From NCBI GenBank assembly GCA_023898645.1, contig CP060232.1, forward strand, positions 630,001-662,000: a stretch of DNA of 32,000 nt, written 5' to 3'. Positions 1,757 to 4,562 of this stretch are shown here, piece after piece (position 1 is the first letter of the stretch; each line of letters opens with the position of its first letter). The position numbers were made by a program, and so were the translations under genes. The DNA comes from Candidatus Saccharimonadota bacterium (GTDB taxonomy: Bacteria; Patescibacteriota; Saccharimonadia; Saccharimonadales; Saccharimonadaceae). A model generated the notes under the pieces. That model saw nothing but the letters and a program-made list of their open reading frames with translations. It was not told where the DNA came from and searched no databases.

Positions 1757-1785
1757 TTGCTTATTTTATTATTTCGTGCTATAAT
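1757..1785 (+). promoter_or_regulatory. Sigma70-like promoter of the DGR target gene (TTGCTT-17 nt-TGcTATAAT)
   Basis: The -35 ttgctt is at 1757-1762 and the -10 tataat is at 1780-1785, with an exact 17-nt spacer and an upstream TG (extended -10). It would give a ~140-nt leader containing an 11-bp stem (1821-1831 / 1857-1867, one G.U pair). Confidence 0.55.
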
Positions 1786-1933
1786 AGTCATCGAACCTTA
1801 ACAGTTTAGCACTCCCTACTGAGAGCGGCGTTTTATATACAAATCTTGCATGTAATACGCCGTTCTCAATCGACAGTTGAGATCACCGCTGCAAGTCGCA
1901 TCGGAGAAGTCTACGGCAAGGAAGAGGGTCATC

Positions 1934-2647
1934 ATGACCACCATCGAGCAGTTGGCCGGTATCACCGCTCAGCACAACGAGATCGTCAAGCGTGTCGGCA
2001 ACGGCTCGCTCGACCCCGCCGCCGTCAAGCGGGCACTCCAGGACATCATCGAGGGCAAGCTGCCCACGCTGACCTGGAACCCGCCCACCTGGTGGCGTAC
2101 CCCCGAGCAGCAGCTCGAGCGTGCTCGCCAGCTCTGGCCGAACGCCGTTCTGCCCGAGCCGCCCAAGGAGTTCACGCCCCGGACGAAGTCCGAGGTGCTG
2201 CTGCTCCACGTGCCGGACATGTTCGACTCCCTCTGGGACAAGGTCGTCGCCCCCACGGACTACACCAAGTACCGGTGGGAGGGTGTCAAGTCTGACAAGC
2301 GGAACCTGCGTCTCTCGCCGAACAAGCGTGAGTACACGGAGCCCGTCTGGTTGGCTTTCGACCCCGAGCGCGGTAAGGGTGAGCGTCCCGACTCCTTCTG
2401 GGGTCAGGCCGACACCGCTGCCAGCGAGGTCTTCTCGGCGCTGATCCAGTTCCCTGAGTGGTCACTCGCGTGGTTCAACGGTGCTTCGGCTCCGAACCTC
2501 TCGGGCTACCAGCTCAAGTACGACGGGAACTGGTCGAACGTTCCGTCCCTCCACCGGTGGGACGTCGACCGCCAGCTGCGGCTGTGCGACCGCTGGGCTG
2601 CCCACCGGCTTGCCCACTGGTCGTCTCCGTCGGTCAGGGAGTGCTGA
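1934..2647 (+). CDS. DGR variable (target) protein, 237 aa, no recognisable N-terminal signal peptide or TM; the C-terminal ~37 codons are the VR
   Basis: The ATG at 1934 is preceded by ggaagaggg (SD-like). The ORF-track TTG at 1877 is less likely. The gene is strongly GC3-biased: 36 of its first 40 codons end in G/C. The VR occupies the 3' end, as in known DGR targets. The C-terminus reads NWSNVPSLHRWDVDRQLRLCDRWAAHRLAHWSSPSVREC. Confidence 0.85.
   Translation: MTTIEQLAGITAQHNEIVKRVGNGSLDPAAVKRALQDIIEGKLPTLTWNPPTWWRTPEQQLERARQLWPNAVLPEPPKEFTPRTKSEVLLLHVPDMFDSLWDKVVAPTDYTKYRWEGVKSDKRNLRLSPNKREYTEPVWLAFDPERGKGERPDSFWGQADTAASEVFSALIQFPEWSLAWFNGASAPNLSGYQLKYDGNWSNVPSLHRWDVDRQLRLCDRWAAHRLAHWSSPSVREC
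2529..2640 (+). repeat. DGR variable region (VR)
   Basis: Aligns without gaps to 3023-3134 at a constant offset of 494 nt. It differs from TR at 15 positions, and all 15 are adenines in TR. The invariant GC-rich 3' block tggtcgtctccgtcggtcaggga is IMH-like. Confidence 0.9.
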
Positions 2648-2651
2648 CACT

Positions 2652-2665
2652 GGAACCTTGGTTCC
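2652..2665 (+). other. Perfect palindrome ggaacc-tt-ggttcc 5 nt after the target stop codon (candidate DGR target-site hairpin/cruciform)
   Basis: Read directly from the sequence: ggaacc at 2652-2657 and ggttcc at 2660-2665. Confidence 0.5.
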
Positions 2666-2668
2666 TTG

Positions 2669-2731
2669 GTATCCGGAGGGGTTTGGTTTCTTGGATCTTG
2701 ATCCTTGAAAACTTTTTACCTCTCCGGATAC
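2669..2731 (+). other. 10-bp inverted repeat gtatccggag / ctccggatac enclosing ~43 nt, in the target 3' UTR
   Basis: The arms are at 2669-2678 and 2722-2731 and are perfectly complementary. Confidence 0.5.
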
Positions 2732-2765
2732 CTGCACTCACTTTTGAATTTGTCCCTTAACCGTT

Positions 2766-2797
2766 CCTCTGCTTTAGCAGAGGCGTTTTTAATTTTT
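2766..2797 (+). terminator. Rho-independent terminator of the target gene
   Basis: The stem cctctgc (2766-2772) pairs with gcagagg (2777-2783) around a ttta loop, followed by cgtttttaattttt. Confidence 0.7.
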
Positions 2798-3022
2798 GCT
2801 AAAATAGGAAGTGAATTGGTTACTGAACGTATGTTCACGGATATGCGTCACTGATTCCGTGTTTTGAAACTGACAGAATTACCTTATTTACGGATCAGGT
2901 AAGCGTGCAGGCAGAATATCGAGCACTCCGTGCAATCCGCTTGAGATATGTATCTCGTATAAAATACAGGGTTTGGATGCGTCTGGACCCGGTGGCACCG
3001 GATGGTGGATCGCGCTATACCG

Positions 3023-3134
3023 ACTGGTCGAACGTTCCGTACCTCAACCGGTGGGACGACGACCGCCAGCTGAAGCTGAACGACAACTGGGCTGACAACC
3101 GGAATGACAACTGGTCGTCTCCGTCGGTCAGGGA
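3023..3134 (+). repeat. DGR template region (TR)
   Basis: This is the A-rich counterpart of the VR, with 27 adenines. It has 7 AAY codons in the VR reading frame (3031, 3046, 3079, 3085, 3097, 3103, 3109), and 6 of them are changed in VR. The ORF-track ORF 2905..3144 merely reflects the frame inherited from VR. Confidence 0.9.
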
Positions 3135-3418
3135 CTGCTCGTGATGGATTTCAGCCAGCCTCCCAGCATGCGTCCAATTTCACTACAAGTGGAATCGAGC
3201 TGCTGGTAGGCCTGGTTAGAAACGCATTTACAGTCTTTACACAAATTGAGGAGCAAGCGGAGGCTATCGAGTCGTACGGATGCTTCGTTTATGTAAGCGG
3301 CCTTATCTGACGGTTTAGTACTACTAGCAGCCCGCAGTGATAGCCGCAGGAGTTCAAGTATTTCGCTCTGACACGTCGCGCCGAGACTGTAGCGCTCTGA
3401 TTTTGGAAATGCAATCAA
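3128..3418 (-). CDS. avd: Avd-like accessory variability determinant (four-helix-bundle protein), encoded antisense to TR and RT
   Basis: Contains FPKSERYSLG...LRAA (a four-helix-bundle / 23S-IVS-protein-like motif) and a C-terminal EIGRMLGGWLKS resembling BPP-1 bAvd ...EVGRILGSWIARV (from memory). The ORF-track start is a TTG at 3418. The Avd-like helix-1 sequence (VYHLYESFHEC) continues upstream with no ATG/GTG/TTG, so the true start is unresolved. The stop codon and last codons overlap the TR 3' end (3128-3134). Confidence 0.75.
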   Translation of the reverse strand: MIAFPKSERYSLGATCQSEILELLRLSLRAASSTKPSDKAAYINEASVRLDSLRLLLNLCKDCKCVSNQAYQQLDSTCSEIGRMLGGWLKSITSSP

Positions 3419-3461
3419 ACATTCATGAAAGGATTCGTATAGGTGGTAGACGCTACTGACA

Positions 3462-4562
3462 ATGGGAACTTTCCGCAGCGCGGAACCTCTCTCTCTCTCT
3501 CTCTCTCTCTCTCTCTCTCTCTCTCTCTCTCTCTCTCTCTCTCTCTCTCTCTCTCTCTCTCTCGATAGCCACGCTCAAACCAACCCTCTCAAAGTAATAA
3601 TTACAGACATTGTATCTATTAAAGCATTGTCAGCCGCATGGCGGAAGTTCTCGCGAGGTAAAAAATCGAGAAAAGATGTGGCCTTGTACCAAAAGTATCT
3701 TCAAAAAAATCTCACTGACCTACACGCGCCGCTTTCATCTGGTCTCTACAGACATCAGTCCTACCAACGATTCACCATTCATGACCCAAAACAACGCCAA
3801 ATACATAAAGCAACGGTGGCCGATAGAATCGTACACCAGGCAGTCGTTACGGCTATCGAGCCGCTCTTCGAGAGGCGATTTATATATGACAGCTACTCCT
3901 GTCGTGTCAATAAAGGTGCTCATGCTGGTGTACTGCGCCTGAAAACTTTTCTTGCCGGTACAAGCAAAAATGACACAAAAGGAGCATATGCGCTCAAGTG
4001 TGATGTACGAAAATACTTTGCCTCAATCGACCATGAAATATTATTGGGCCTTATTGCTCGCCACATCCAAGATGATGCAACATTGGAACTGATACGAACG
4101 ATTATTCTGAGCTATGGTCCCGAAACTGGTAAAGGCATACCGCTCGGCAATATTAGCAGCCAGTTGTTTGCGAACATATATCTCCATGAGTTGGATTGGT
4201 TCATGAAACAAACCCTTGGCGTTAAGCAATATATTCGCTATTGCGATGATTTCGTGATTGTCTCATCGGACAGAGCATATCTCGAAAGCCTCATCACACC
4301 CATCCGCAATTTTCTAAAAACCGAACTACAACTTGATTTGCATCCATCAAAAGTGTCGATTCGATCATGGAGACAAGGTGTAGATTTTCTTGGCTACGTC
4401 CTACTGCCACACGCTACCGTGGTTCGCACAAAAACGCAAAAGAGAGTACATTCAAAAGTTAATGCCGCCAACTACTCGTCTTACCTTGGAGTATGTTCCC
4501 ACGCAAATGCCTACAGACTCTCGCAAACTATACGTAACGTAGTTTGGGCTGACAACTTATAG
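3462..4562 (+). CDS. DGR reverse transcriptase
   Basis: RT motifs are SYSCRVNKGAHAG, the DGR hallmark IPLGNISSQLFANIYL ([ILV]GxxxSQ) and YIRYCDDFVIV (YxDD). The N-terminal IVSIKALSAAWRKFSRGKK resembles Brt ITTWENLWDAYRKTSHGKR (from memory). The start is uncertain: ATG 3462 is the only canonical start upstream of the conserved core, and using it requires reading through the CT tract. The next in-frame TTG at 3627 would truncate the core. Confidence 0.9.
   Translation: MGTFRSAEPLSLSLSLSLSLSLSLSLSLSLSLSLDSHAQTNPLKVIITDIVSIKALSAAWRKFSRGKKSRKDVALYQKYLQKNLTDLHAPLSSGLYRHQSYQRFTIHDPKQRQIHKATVADRIVHQAVVTAIEPLFERRFIYDSYSCRVNKGAHAGVLRLKTFLAGTSKNDTKGAYALKCDVRKYFASIDHEILLGLIARHIQDDATLELIRTIILSYGPETGKGIPLGNISSQLFANIYLHELDWFMKQTLGVKQYIRYCDDFVIVSSDRAYLESLITPIRNFLKTELQLDLHPSKVSIRSWRQGVDFLGYVLLPHATVVRTKTQKRVHSKVNAANYSSYLGVCSHANAYRLSQTIRNVVWADNL
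3487..3563. repeat. (CT)38 dinucleotide microsatellite, a 77-nt perfect polypyrimidine/polypurine tract
   Basis: Counted from the sequence: ct units run from 3487 to 3562, plus c at 3563. On the + strand it reads (LS)n, in frame between ATG 3462 and the RT core. On the - strand it reads (ER)n, in frame with avd. Confidence 0.95.

What the first reader, a model, noticed from the sequence alone, without database searches (positions are those of the whole stretch)
1757..4562. Complete DGR with a textbook adenine-only TR/VR mismatch pattern
TR (3023-3134) and VR (2529-2640, the last ~37 codons of CDS 1934-2647) align without gaps at a constant offset of 494 nt.
- Compared base by base, there are 15 differences, and every one is at a TR adenine: 3041, 3046, 3059, 3073, 3074, 3079, 3080, 3085, 3086, 3095, 3097, 3103, 3104, 3107, 3109. 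The changes are A to C, G or T.
- Twelve TR adenines are unchanged, and there are no differences at the 85 non-A positions.
- TR has 7 AAY codons in frame. Six are recoded in VR (N to H, C, R, H, L, H).
- Homology ends in an invariant GC-rich block (tggtcgtctccgtcggtcaggga), which is IMH-like.
- The RT carries the DGR-clade motifs (LGNISSQ, YCDD, SYSCRVNKGAH), and an Avd-like ORF is present.

Together this is the signature of mutagenic homing having acted on this target. The target protein matches no family I recognise, and its VR (WSNVP..RWD.DRQL.L.D.W....R....WSSPSVREC) does not look like the common FGE/CLec VR consensus I remember.
Basis: partly seen in the sequence, partly recalled or inferred. 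Interest (0 to 1): 0.85.

Follow-up and report, generated by a model that had tools for sequence, protein, structure and literature searches.

The report
Patescibacterial DGR with repeat-gated reverse transcriptase
This is a real, complete diversity-generating retroelement in a tiny-celled (CPR/Patescibacteria) bacterium. It rewrites the tail of a protein of unknown family and unrecognised fold, and two unreported oddities make it more than routine: an unstable DNA repeat at the start of its enzyme genes and a strongly GC-rich target gene.

Summary
TR 3023-3134 and VR 2529-2640 align without gaps and differ at 15 sites, all at TR adenines (chance about 5e-10).

The cassette is complete:
- a promoter-like site and structured leader
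- target CDS 1934-2647
- a GC-rich IMH-like block
- a covarying hairpin element 3' of the VR, then a terminator
- the TR
- Avd on the minus strand
- an RT whose best solved relative is Bordetella phage bRT

Homologues from other samples vary almost only at TR-adenine codons, so this element family is active in nature. The layout fits the known CPR-type DGR, so the element itself is a new member of a known kind.

Three further points:
1. The target family (at least 264 clusters) has no Pfam, NCBIfam, PHROG or PDB match. A pLDDT-96 model has no Foldseek match.
2. A (CT)38 repeat lies in the overlapping 5' ends of the divergent RT and Avd ORFs. Relatives carry (CT)6 to (CT)23, including three natural lengths that leave the RT without a start codon. 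About 50 of 80 related loci carry a G7-G12 (one G25) tract at the same place. This suggests phase variation.
3. The target gene is a long-maintained GC island (GC3 0.89 against about 0.45). This holds across the clade and is unexplained.

The parts
1757..1785 (+). Promoter-like site for the target gene: TTGCTT (1757-1762), 17-nt spacer, TGn-TATAAT (1777-1785)
   Evidence: Read directly from the sequence. The consensus scan did not list it because the -35 hexamer matches only 3 of 6. The region from 1750 on is conserved together with the target gene in L001 and L002.
1791..1933 (+). Structured 5' leader of the target gene, with a long hairpin at 1820-1868 and the SD-like sequence aaggaagaggg before ATG 1934
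   Evidence: RNA fold -47 kcal/mol, z = -3.4. Window 1700-1869 is 94% identical in L003 and 1777-1869 is 74% identical in the distant L007. No Rfam family matches.
1934..2647 (+). Target (variable protein) gene, 237 aa, uncharacterised family. GC 66%, GC3 0.886, A3 0.01
   Evidence: ORF. 371 homologues and at least 264 clusters at 50% identity. No Pfam, NCBIfam, PHROG or PDB hit. AF2 pLDDT 96 with no Foldseek match. Composition.
2529..2645 (+). VR: the last 39 codons of the target, including the IMH-like GC-rich block 2618-2640 and the IMH/IMH* difference at 2641
2652..2732 (+). Conserved structured element 3' of the VR: hairpin GGAAC-CTTG-GTTCC (2652-2665), then a 15-bp stem (2668-2682 / 2718-2732) enclosing GGAT-CTTG-ATCC (2693-2704)
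   Evidence: DNA fold z = -6.5, with 0 of 200 shuffles as stable. In an alignment of 10 loci, 9 of 21 pairs carry compensatory changes.
2766..2792 (+). Intrinsic terminator-like hairpin plus T-run at the end of the target transcript
3023..3139 (+). TR (template repeat). It has 27 adenines, none at a third codon position, and lies in a relic ORF 2905-3144
   Evidence: The TRs of the window and L002 differ at 9 non-A sites, and each VR follows its own TR.
3128..3475 (-). Avd accessory protein gene, antisense to the TR-RT transcript. The ORF stays open up to 3574, through the repeat, but has no ATG, GTG or TTG before 3418. A CTG lies at 3475-3473.
   Evidence: PF22296 4.7e-17. NF033474 scores 72 bits, below its cut-off of 80. 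PHROG 3206 'Avd protein of DGR' 2e-22. Start-codon analysis.
3487..3562 (.). (CT)38 / (GA)38 dinucleotide repeat. It is read as (Leu-Ser)n in the RT ORF and as (Glu-Arg)n in the extended Avd frame.
   Evidence: Lengths in relatives are 23, 23, 22, 22, 14, 13, 12, 11 and 6.
3462..4562 (+). DGR reverse transcriptase, 366 aa from ATG 3462. The conserved domain begins about 3594, after the repeat.
   Evidence: RVT_1 4.7e-20. Best PDB hit is bRT 8ub7_A at 1.8e-42. PHROG 1423 1.3e-104. No canonical start codon lies between the repeat and the conserved N-terminus.

Best explanation
This is a chromosomal diversity-generating retroelement of the CPR/Patescibacteria type.

Proposed steps, each inferred from the Bordetella phage mechanism and not shown here:
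1. A + strand RNA starting upstream of 3023 carries the TR and runs on, antisense to avd, towards the RT gene.
2. The RT, with Avd, copies the TR into cDNA and misincorporates opposite adenines.
3. The cDNA replaces the VR (2529-2645) of the target gene. It is guided by the GC-rich IMH-like block and the hairpin element just downstream.
4. This randomises about 16 codons. In the model these lie along a C-terminal beta-hairpin and a loop of a 237-aa protein of unknown family.

What is shown: all the parts are present; information flows from TR to VR; and variation in nature is confined to TR-adenine codons.

A second layer, also inferred: the RT, and in relatives also Avd, must be translated through a hypermutable (CT)n repeat. 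Slippage of the repeat would switch the diversifier on and off.
For: - TR/VR: 15 of 15 mismatches are at TR adenines and 0 of 85 at other bases.
- RT is closest to bRT and carries the DGR motif LGNISSQ. Avd is identified by three libraries.
- The 3' hairpin element is stable and covaries.
- TR sequences differ between the window and L002 at 9 non-A sites, and each VR carries its own TR's version. That is TR-to-VR copying in both lineages.
- Across 65 homologues, hypervariability sits at the 7 AAY codons, with lesser variability at other TR-A codons.
- In one near-clonal cluster, residues 1-200 are almost identical while the 3' half of the VR is a mosaic. This fits 3'-anchored homing.
- Repeat: the RT ORF stays open through (CT)n to an upstream start in the window, L002, L082, L003, L011 and L004.
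- Avd reads through (GA)n from ATG, TTG or GTG in L004, L011 and L003.
- Lengths of 22, 22 and 13 units (L083, L088, L091) leave the RT frame without a start.
- L002, L082 and L083 have an identical non-VR target sequence and VRs that differ by at most one base, but carry 23, 23 and 22 units.
Against: - No read-level data exist for this genome, so current activity here is not shown.
- In the window, L002, L082 and L083 the Avd start seen in L003 (GTG) is GCG. Only a CTG (3475) or a truncating TTG (3418) remains, so Avd may be poorly made or not made.
- L002, L082 and L083 have VRs that are identical or differ by one base, so there is no turnover visible in that strain.
- The 25-residue Leu-Ser run at the RT N-terminus could impair the enzyme.
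- For the switch idea: two of three repeat phases are 'on'. The test of frame preference across 40 loci was not significant (26 observed against 23.3 expected). Start codons were assumed to be canonical.
- Repeat lengths come from assemblies of unknown technology.
Confidence: 0.9

Rival explanations
1. The cassette is a recently silenced relic. The TR/VR pattern records past homing, but in this genome the element no longer works, because Avd has lost its start codon and the repeat has expanded to 38 units inside the RT.
For: - GCG stands at the codon that is GTG in L003, directly preceded by a TGA stop. There is no canonical Avd start before 3418.
- (CT)38 is the longest tract seen.
- The VRs of L002, L082 and L083, which share the same Avd defect, are identical or differ by one base.
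- Decay does occur in this group: L003 has lost its adjacent target, and L089 carries a separate RT frameshift.
Against: - The RT ORF is intact and in frame with ATG 3462 across 76 nt of repeat.
- The Avd coding sequence is intact and conserved (98% to L002).
- TR and VR retain a perfect adenine-only pattern, with no decay at the 85 non-A sites.
- The window and L002 have different VRs that each track their own TR. Homing therefore continued after these lineages split, and both carry the GCG codon.
Confidence: 0.25
2. The repeat (and the poly-G tract of relatives) is not a switch. It would instead be a neutral low-complexity linker, a cis element of the DGR RNA or promoter, or partly an assembly artefact.
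For: - The frame test was not significant.
- In L017, L020 and L024 the G tract lies between TTGCTT and CATAAT, upstream of the ATG. It is therefore not coding in every locus.
- Two of three phases keep an upstream start.
- Homopolymers and dinucleotide runs are error-prone in sequencing.
Against: - Three different repeat types (poly-G, CT, AG) occupy the same position. This argues against a sequence-specific RNA role and for mutability as the shared property.
- Of 52 G/C runs of 8 or more in 810 kb, about 49 lie at this junction.
- Tract length differs in both close pairs available.
- Tract length also differs among three assemblies with an identical non-VR target sequence and near-identical VRs.
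- A promoter-spacer tract would itself be a known kind of phase-variation switch.
Confidence: 0.4
3. The TR/VR pair is an ordinary diverged duplication of a gene's 3' end, with no retroelement involved.
For: The TR lies in a relic ORF (2905-3144) that looks like a duplicated gene tail.
Against: - 15 of 15 differences fall at adenines of one copy, about 5e-10 by chance.
- A bRT-like RT and an Avd are adjacent.
- The same pattern is found in 59 related loci, each with at least 80% of mismatches at TR adenines.
Confidence: 0.01

Closest known systems
Bordetella phage BPP-1 DGR (bRT, Avd, TR, Mtd VR, IMH, hairpin)
   Same: - The RT is the best solved-structure relative (8ub7_A, E 1.8e-42, aligned over 291 residues, motif IGSLTSQ against LGNISSQ).
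- Both have an Avd accessory protein.
- TR/VR differences are adenine-only, at AAY codons.
- A GC-rich block ends the homology.
- An inverted repeat lies just 3' of the VR.
   Different: - avd lies between the TR and the RT on the opposite strand, so the RNA 3' of the TR is antisense to avd.
- The element is chromosomal in a CPR bacterium, not in a phage.
- The 3' element is a roughly 80-nt double hairpin rather than one short hairpin.
- The target is not Mtd-like.
- A dinucleotide repeat sits in the RT 5' end.
CPR/DPANN DGRs (Paul et al. 2017, cited in PMC10221324; 'B3 architecture' and unclassified VRs of Wu et al. 2018, PMC5758913)
   Same: - The host is Patescibacteria.
- The cassette has its own avd/TR order and orientation. 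B3 accounts for 90% of CPR DGRs.
- In all 51 related loci where I found Avd, it is on the strand opposite the RT.
- Targets have no recognisable domains and their VRs are left unclassified.
   Different: I could not see the figure that defines B3, so the match to B3 is inferred. The junction repeat or poly-G tract, the GC-rich target genes and the unrecognised fold were not mentioned in the papers I could read or search.
C-type-lectin-fold DGR variable proteins (Mtd, TvpA, AvpA, LdtA)
   Same: - The VR is at the extreme C-terminus.
- Variable residues alternate with invariant aromatic or hydrophobic scaffold residues (W200, W209, L215, L217, W221, W229).
- Diversity is of similar size, with about 16 variable codons.
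   Different: There is no FGE-sulfatase or DUF1566 profile hit, even at E of 1 or below, in 59 family members. Foldseek finds no significant match in the PDB. TvpA (2y3c) appears only at rank 39, E 3.4, over 47 columns. There is no signal peptide or lipobox at the N-terminus (my reading of the sequence).
Simple-sequence-repeat contingency loci, such as the repeat tracts in the promoter and 5' coding region of Helicobacter pylori sabA (PMC2715451) and poly-G tracts in Neisseria or Campylobacter ORFs (PMC3786947, PMC6321876)
   Same: - A hypermutable tract lies in the 5' coding region.
- Tract length differs between close relatives.
- Some lengths leave the ORF without a start.
   Different: - It gates a retroelement's RT, and in relatives also the divergent Avd, through one shared tract.
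- The tract is much longer (up to 38 units).
- Two of three phases appear to be 'on'.
- No experimental switching data exist.

Membership tests
Diversity-generating retroelement (DGR) | The reverse transcriptase belongs to the DGR clade, not to the group II intron or retron clades | tested here: met
   The best PDB hit is Bordetella phage bRT (8ub7_A) at E 1.8e-42, against 1.5e-23 for the group II RT GsI-IIC and 1.2e-20 for the best retron-labelled entry. The motif LGNISSQ aligns to bRT IGSLTSQ. PHROG 1423 scores 1.3e-104. NCBIfam has no DGR-RT model, and its group II model scores 155 bits against a cut-off of 300.
Diversity-generating retroelement (DGR) | A TR/VR repeat pair whose differences are confined to adenines of the TR | tested here: met
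   15 of 15 mismatches are at TR adenines and 0 of 85 at non-A positions. The chance is about 5e-10.
Diversity-generating retroelement (DGR) | The VR lies at the 3' end of a protein-coding gene, and TR adenines sit at codon positions 1 and 2 (AAY) | tested here: met
   The VR is codons 199-237 of 237. There are 7 AAY codons, and the TR has A3 = 0.00.
Diversity-generating retroelement (DGR) | A GC-rich IMH at the VR end and a non-identical IMH* at the TR end | tested here: met
   A 23-nt identical GC-rich block (2618-2640 / 3112-3134) is followed by G2641 against C3135, and similarity is lost after 2645. Its function was not tested.
Diversity-generating retroelement (DGR) | An inverted repeat (hairpin or cruciform) just downstream of the VR | tested here: met
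   Hairpins span 2652-2732 with z = -6.5, and 9 of 21 pairs have compensatory changes across 10 loci.
Diversity-generating retroelement (DGR) | An accessory Avd protein | tested here: met
   PF22296 bAvd scores 62.9 bits (cut-off 40). PHROG 'Avd protein of DGR' scores 2e-22. NF033474 scores 72.1 bits, below its cut-off of 80. Caveat: there is no canonical start codon in this genome.
Diversity-generating retroelement (DGR) | Ongoing diversification of the VR in populations | tested here: inconclusive
   Shown across samples and in a sister lineage. Not shown for this genome. The related assemblies L002, L082 and L083 have VRs that are identical or differ by one base. No reads were available.
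C-type-lectin-fold DGR variable protein | Sequence-profile membership (FGE-sulfatase or DUF1566-type CLec) | tested here: not met
   None of 59 family members hits these Pfam families at E of 1 or below. PDB profile searches give only noise.
C-type-lectin-fold DGR variable protein | CLec fold of the VR-bearing domain | tested here: inconclusive
CPR-type DGR cassette (architecture B3 of Wu et al. 2018) | A specific order and orientation of avd and TR relative to the RT; a Patescibacteria host | tested here: inconclusive
   The order target, TR, avd (reverse), RT is seen here, and all 51 related loci with a detectable Avd have it on the opposite strand. The text says B3 accounts for 90% of CPR DGRs, but the figure that defines B3 was not available.
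SSR-mediated phase-variable (contingency) locus | A hypermutable tract within the 5' coding region or promoter of the controlled gene | tested here: met
   (CT)38 lies between ATG 3462 and the conserved RT N-terminus, and no start codon lies downstream of it.
SSR-mediated phase-variable (contingency) locus | Tract-length polymorphism among close relatives, including lengths that abolish the ORF | tested here: met
   Lengths of 38, 23, 23, 22, 22, 14, 13, 12, 11 and 6 units are seen. Lengths 22, 22 and 13 leave the RT without an in-frame start. L002, L082 and L083 have an identical non-VR target sequence and VRs differing by at most one base, yet carry 23, 23 and 22 units.
SSR-mediated phase-variable (contingency) locus | Reversible switching within a population, with an effect on expression | not testable with these tools
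   This needs reads or experiments.

The most novel reading that the evidence does not exclude
CPR-type DGRs carry a built-in stochastic on/off switch. A hypermutable tract sits in the overlapping 5' ends of the divergent RT and Avd genes: (CT)n here, poly-G in most relatives. Slippage turns the diversifier off after a useful variant arises and on again later. In addition, their targets form a large protein family with a third, non-CLec, non-Ig scaffold for DGR variation. This family is encoded by genes held at 15-30 points higher GC than their genomes by an unknown force.
Probability: 0.35. Interest if true: 0.8.

Novelty: new variant of a known kind. Interest (0 to 1): 0.58.

Why it matters
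DGRs create more protein sequence variation than any other known natural system. How cells limit this mutagenesis and keep a good variant is still poorly understood.

A repeat-controlled RT and Avd would be a simple, testable answer for the very large CPR branch of DGRs. Amplicon sequencing of one short region, compared with VR turnover, would test it.

The target family is widespread in Saccharibacteria-like bacteria and is confidently modelled, yet it matches no known fold. It is therefore a candidate new scaffold for engineered hypervariable binders, and a lead to how these epibiotic bacteria recognise partners.

The clade-wide GC enrichment of target genes is unexplained. It could point to a requirement of the homing mechanism.

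Tried and rejected
- Rfam search of 1500-4700 at E of 5 or below found nothing, for either the leader or the 3' element.
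- AF2 on the shallow alignment A1 (80-94% identity) gave a useless model, pLDDT 50. It worked only with the diverse alignment A3.
- Frame-preference test for the junction tract across 40 loci: 26 'on' against 23.3 expected, which is not informative.
- CTG 3475 as the general Avd start was rejected as a conserved feature, because L011 has CTC there.
- The G tract as a Shine-Dalgarno site was rejected. In many loci it follows the start codon, and in others it lies 30-45 nt upstream of it.
- A link between the target and the type IV secretion cluster was not upheld. VirD4 is the upstream neighbour here and in L003, and a full cluster is nearby in L001. However, L084 and L086 have the target in unrelated contexts, and a PLD-like gene is the more frequent neighbour.
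- GC richness as recent horizontal transfer was rejected, because family members at 27-41% identity are equally GC-rich.
- GC richness as the footprint of gene-wide adenine mutagenesis is not supported. T3 is depleted as well as A3, and the ratio varies between loci.
- The single metagenome-contig scan with the repeat's left flank gave only 2 loci.
- Paul et al. 2017 and the supplements of Wu et al. 2018 were not available.

Full report
**1. The observation**

With an offset of 494 nt, VR 2529-2640 and TR 3023-3134 align without gaps. The 15 differences fall at TR positions 3041, 3046, 3059, 3073, 3074, 3079, 3080, 3085, 3086, 3095, 3097, 3103, 3104, 3107 and 3109, and every one is an adenine in the TR. 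Twelve TR adenines are unchanged, and none of the 85 other positions differs. Adenine makes up 27 of 112 TR bases, so the chance that 15 random differences all hit A is about 5e-10.

Homology continues to 2645/3139 with one non-A mismatch (G2641 against C3135) just after the identical GC-rich block tggtcgtctccgtcggtcaggga. That is where an IMH/IMH* difference is expected. The seven in-frame AAY codons and the six recodings (H, C, R, H, L, H) are correct. No further VR-like copy exists in the 32 kb.

**2. The parts**

- RT. ORF 3462-4562 is an RVT_1 protein. Its best relative among solved structures is the Bordetella phage enzyme bRT (8ub7_A, E 1.8e-42 over 291 residues). The best group II intron RT is far behind at 1.5e-23. 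I recognise the aligned chain IDQITTWENL...IGSLTSQ...YMDD as bRT from my own knowledge of that sequence.
- Avd. The protein is real: PF22296 at 4.7e-17, PHROG 'Avd protein of DGR' at 2e-22, and NF033474 at 72 bits, just under its cut-off of 80. It is encoded on the minus strand (3128 to about 3475), between the TR and the RT, and its stop overlaps the 3' end of the TR.
- Region 3' of the VR. A hairpin (2652-2665) is followed by a 15-bp stem (2668-2682 / 2718-2732) that encloses a third hairpin. As DNA this region folds with z = -6.5. In ten loci, 9 of the 21 consensus pairs show compensatory changes. An intrinsic terminator follows at 2766-2783.
- Upstream of the target. A TTGCTT-17-TGnTATAAT site lies at 1757-1785, read by eye; the scan missed it because the -35 is weak. 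It is followed by a 143-nt leader with a long hairpin at 1820-1868 (z = -3.4). The leader is conserved in L003 and even in the distant L007. No Rfam family matches any of this.

**3. Source and setting**

The target protein is identical to NCBI USN96057.1, from a MAG labelled Candidatus Nomurabacteria bacterium, on a 1.13-Mb contig. The closest genomes by RT identity are Candidatus Saccharibacteria UBA6572 (L002, 96%) and Ca. Microsaccharimonas sossegonensis (L003, 95%). The rest of the window holds ordinary chromosomal genes, including ribosomal protein L1, ThyX-like, dCTP deaminase, a histidine kinase and an MFS transporter. The gene upstream is a VirD4-like coupling protein.

**4. Evidence that the element works**

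- Among 65 homologues of 80-94% identity, column entropy exceeds 3 bits only at residues 202, 207, 218, 220, 224, 226 and 228, which are the seven AAY codons. It is 1.2-2.5 bits at the other TR-adenine codons. The mean is 0.37 bits over residues 1-198.
- The nearest homologue differs at 3 of 198 scaffold residues, at 12 TR-A codons and at 0 of the other VR codons.
- In the cluster of P0089, nine sequences are virtually identical over residues 1-200. They carry mosaic VRs that differ only in the 3' half. This fits homing that starts at the 3' end with variable 5' crossover.
- The TRs of the window and of L002 differ at nine non-adenine sites, and each VR carries its own TR's bases there. This shows TR-to-VR copying after the two lineages split.
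- Activity in this particular genome is not shown. No reads were available, and L002, L082 and L083 have VRs that are identical or differ by one base.

**5. The target protein**

It has 371 homologues in the 90%-identity database and at least 264 clusters at 50% identity, mostly 230-290 aa. It has no Pfam, NCBIfam, PHROG or PDB sequence match, and this also holds for 59 diverse members scanned one by one.

A shallow alignment gave a poor model. The diverse alignment A3 gave pLDDT 96.1 and pTM 0.83. The model has two N-terminal helices (4-23 and 28-39), then an alpha/beta domain. The VR forms strands 199-209 and 214-221, the loop 222-232 and a last strand 233-236. In the two long strands the variable residues (202, 205, 207; 214, 216, 218, 220) alternate with invariant W, L or R residues. 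This suggests, by inference, that one face of a hairpin is displayed.

Foldseek found nothing significant in the PDB (best E 0.53) or in BFVD (best E 0.19). The CLec-fold DGR protein TvpA appears only at rank 39 over 47 columns. So a CLec fold is neither shown nor excluded, and by sequence the protein is not an FGE/DUF1566-type CLec.

By my reading of the N-terminus there is no signal peptide. The gene also occurs alone, with no RT within 8-10 kb, in L001, L084 and L086. It is therefore either diversified in trans or frozen in those genomes.

**6. The repeat**

A perfect (CT)38 occupies 3487-3562. The RT's conserved N-terminus starts about 30 nt after it, and no ATG, GTG or TTG lies in between. 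The only start is ATG 3462, upstream of the repeat, which reads the repeat as (Leu-Ser)n.

Related loci carry (CT)23 (L002, L082), 22 (L083, L088), 14 (L003), 13 (L091), 12 (L089/L090), 11 (L011) and 6 (L004). The effect of repeat phase on the RT frame is:

| n mod 3 | RT frame | Seen in |
|---|---|---|
| 2 | Joins the ATG ('MGTFRSAEP...') | Window, L002, L082, L003 and protein P0121 |
| 0 | Joins a GTG in another frame ('MVDATDNGNFPQRGTS...') | Protein P0122; L004 (n = 6), which starts at an ATG in the equivalent frame |
| 1 | No start at all | L083, L088 and L091, where gene callers fell back on internal methionines |

L011 (n = 11) has different flanks and its RT starts from an ATG in the second type of frame.

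On the other strand, Avd in L004, L011 and L003 starts at ATG, TTG or GTG beyond the repeat and reads it as (Glu-Arg)n. The two divergent genes therefore overlap head to head across the tract. In the window, L002, L082 and L083 that Avd start codon is GCG, preceded by a TGA stop.

L002, L082 and L083 have identical non-VR target sequence and VRs differing by at most one base, yet carry 23, 23 and 22 units.

Of the 80 related loci, 50 have a G7-G12 tract (one G25), 4 have (CT)n, and one has (AG)10, all on the RT strand at the same junction. Of 52 G/C runs of 8 or more in 810 kb, about 49 lie there. In some loci the tract directly follows the start codon (M-x-GGG...). In L017, L020 and L024 it sits between TTGCTT and CATAAT, with lengths of 9, 12 and 10.

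Three different repeat chemistries at one position point to mutability as the shared property. That is the design of a phase-variation switch. This remains an inference. My frame test was not significant (26 against 23.3 expected of 40), and there are no within-population data. Full-text searches found no paper that links DGRs with homopolymer or repeat-mediated switching.

**7. The GC island**

The target ORF has 66% GC, GC3 0.886 and A3 0.01. Eleven other window genes have GC3 of 0.41-0.55, and the RT and VirD4 genes checked have A3 of 0.30. The same holds for family members at only 27-41% identity.

It also holds for 59 related DGR loci in which I detected TR/VR pairs. The median GC3 excess over the RT gene is 0.29, and 45 of 59 loci exceed 0.15. 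Examples: L047 has 58% GC in the target against 28% in the RT, and L016 has 64% against 33.5%. Some GC3 values there are unreliable because of frame choice, but plain GC is robust.

It is therefore an old, maintained trait and not recent transfer. Adenine-specific erosion does not explain it, because T3 is also low. I have no explanation and found none in the literature.

**8. Comparison with what is known**

Mechanistically this is a DGR like the Bordetella phage prototype. By layout and host it belongs with the CPR DGRs. Wu et al. [quoted passage not shown] In all 51 related loci where I found Avd, it is antisense to the RT.

So the reversed Avd and the 'unknown' target are typical of the group and not new. 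As far as I could check, the following appear unreported: the junction repeat or poly-G tract, the head-to-head overlap of RT and Avd across it, the GC-rich targets, and a confident model with no fold match.

**9. Verdict**

As a DGR it is a new member of a known kind. The repeat-gated RT/Avd, the compositional island and the unrecognised scaffold make it a new variant worth following up. Interest: 0.58.

Noticed in passing
window 3487-3562; L002 5954-5999; L003 5966-5993; L011 5978-5999; L004 1069-1080; L082 2308-2353; L083 (reverse complement) 5317-5360; L088, L091: A (CT)n repeat of 6 to 38 units lies in the overlapping 5' ends of the divergent RT and Avd ORFs. Lengths with n = 1 mod 3 (22, 22, 13) leave the RT without a start codon. 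The other two phases each join a different upstream start.
   Followed up: yes
L007-L081, 7-58 nt upstream of the conserved RT N-terminus (for example L008 5954, L029 5965): 50 of 80 Patescibacteria DGR loci carry a G7-G12 tract (one G25) at the RT/Avd junction. About 49 of the 52 G/C runs of 8 or more in 810 kb lie there. In some loci the tract follows the start codon; in L017, L020 and L024 it lies between -35-like and -10-like hexamers.
   Followed up: partly
window 1934-2647; target ORFs of 59 related loci: The target gene is a sharp GC island (66% GC, GC3 0.89, A3 0.01, against GC3 of about 0.45 elsewhere). The same excess is seen across the whole clade, even at 27% protein identity. Unexplained.
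   Followed up: partly
window 3572-3577 and 3473-3475 (minus strand): Avd has no canonical start codon here. The codon that is GTG in L003 is GCG, directly after a TGA stop. Only CTG 3475 or the truncating TTG 3418 remains. L002, L082 and L083 show the same state.
   Followed up: partly
L003 5041-5623: In Ca. Microsaccharimonas sossegonensis the leader is followed by a 110-aa ORF. In it, the N-terminal helices of a target gene are fused directly to the unmutated TR. The target core, the VR and the 3' element are missing, so that DGR has no adjacent target.
   Followed up: partly
L001 10001-10825; L084 8001-8714; L086 8001-8720: Close homologues of the target gene, with the same leader and 3' element in L001, stand alone with no RT within 8-10 kb, yet their VRs are diversified. 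Neighbours differ: a T4SS cluster in L001, an IS200-like Y1 transposase gene in L084, and a PLD-like gene in L001, L086 and L087.
   Followed up: partly
window 1791-1933 (hairpin 1820-1868): The structured 5' leader of the target gene is conserved in L003 (94%) and in distant L007 (74%). No Rfam match. Its role is unknown.
   Followed up: partly
window 209-1732 and 4589-6096: The cassette sits between a VirD4-like coupling-protein gene and a block of HAD-like, 169-aa and PLD-like genes. In L001 these are contiguous, which suggests the target-TR-Avd-RT unit was inserted here or excised there.
   Followed up: no
L089 about 2440-2500; the same sequence in L090 just upstream of 424: A related RT has a separate 1-nt frameshift in its N-terminal region (MAEVFEGEK...) in addition to (CT)12. 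It may be a decaying copy.
   Followed up: no
L018 3083-3871 and 4242-5006: One related locus carries two tandem paralogues of the target family (28-32% identity to the window protein), both GC-rich.
   Followed up: no
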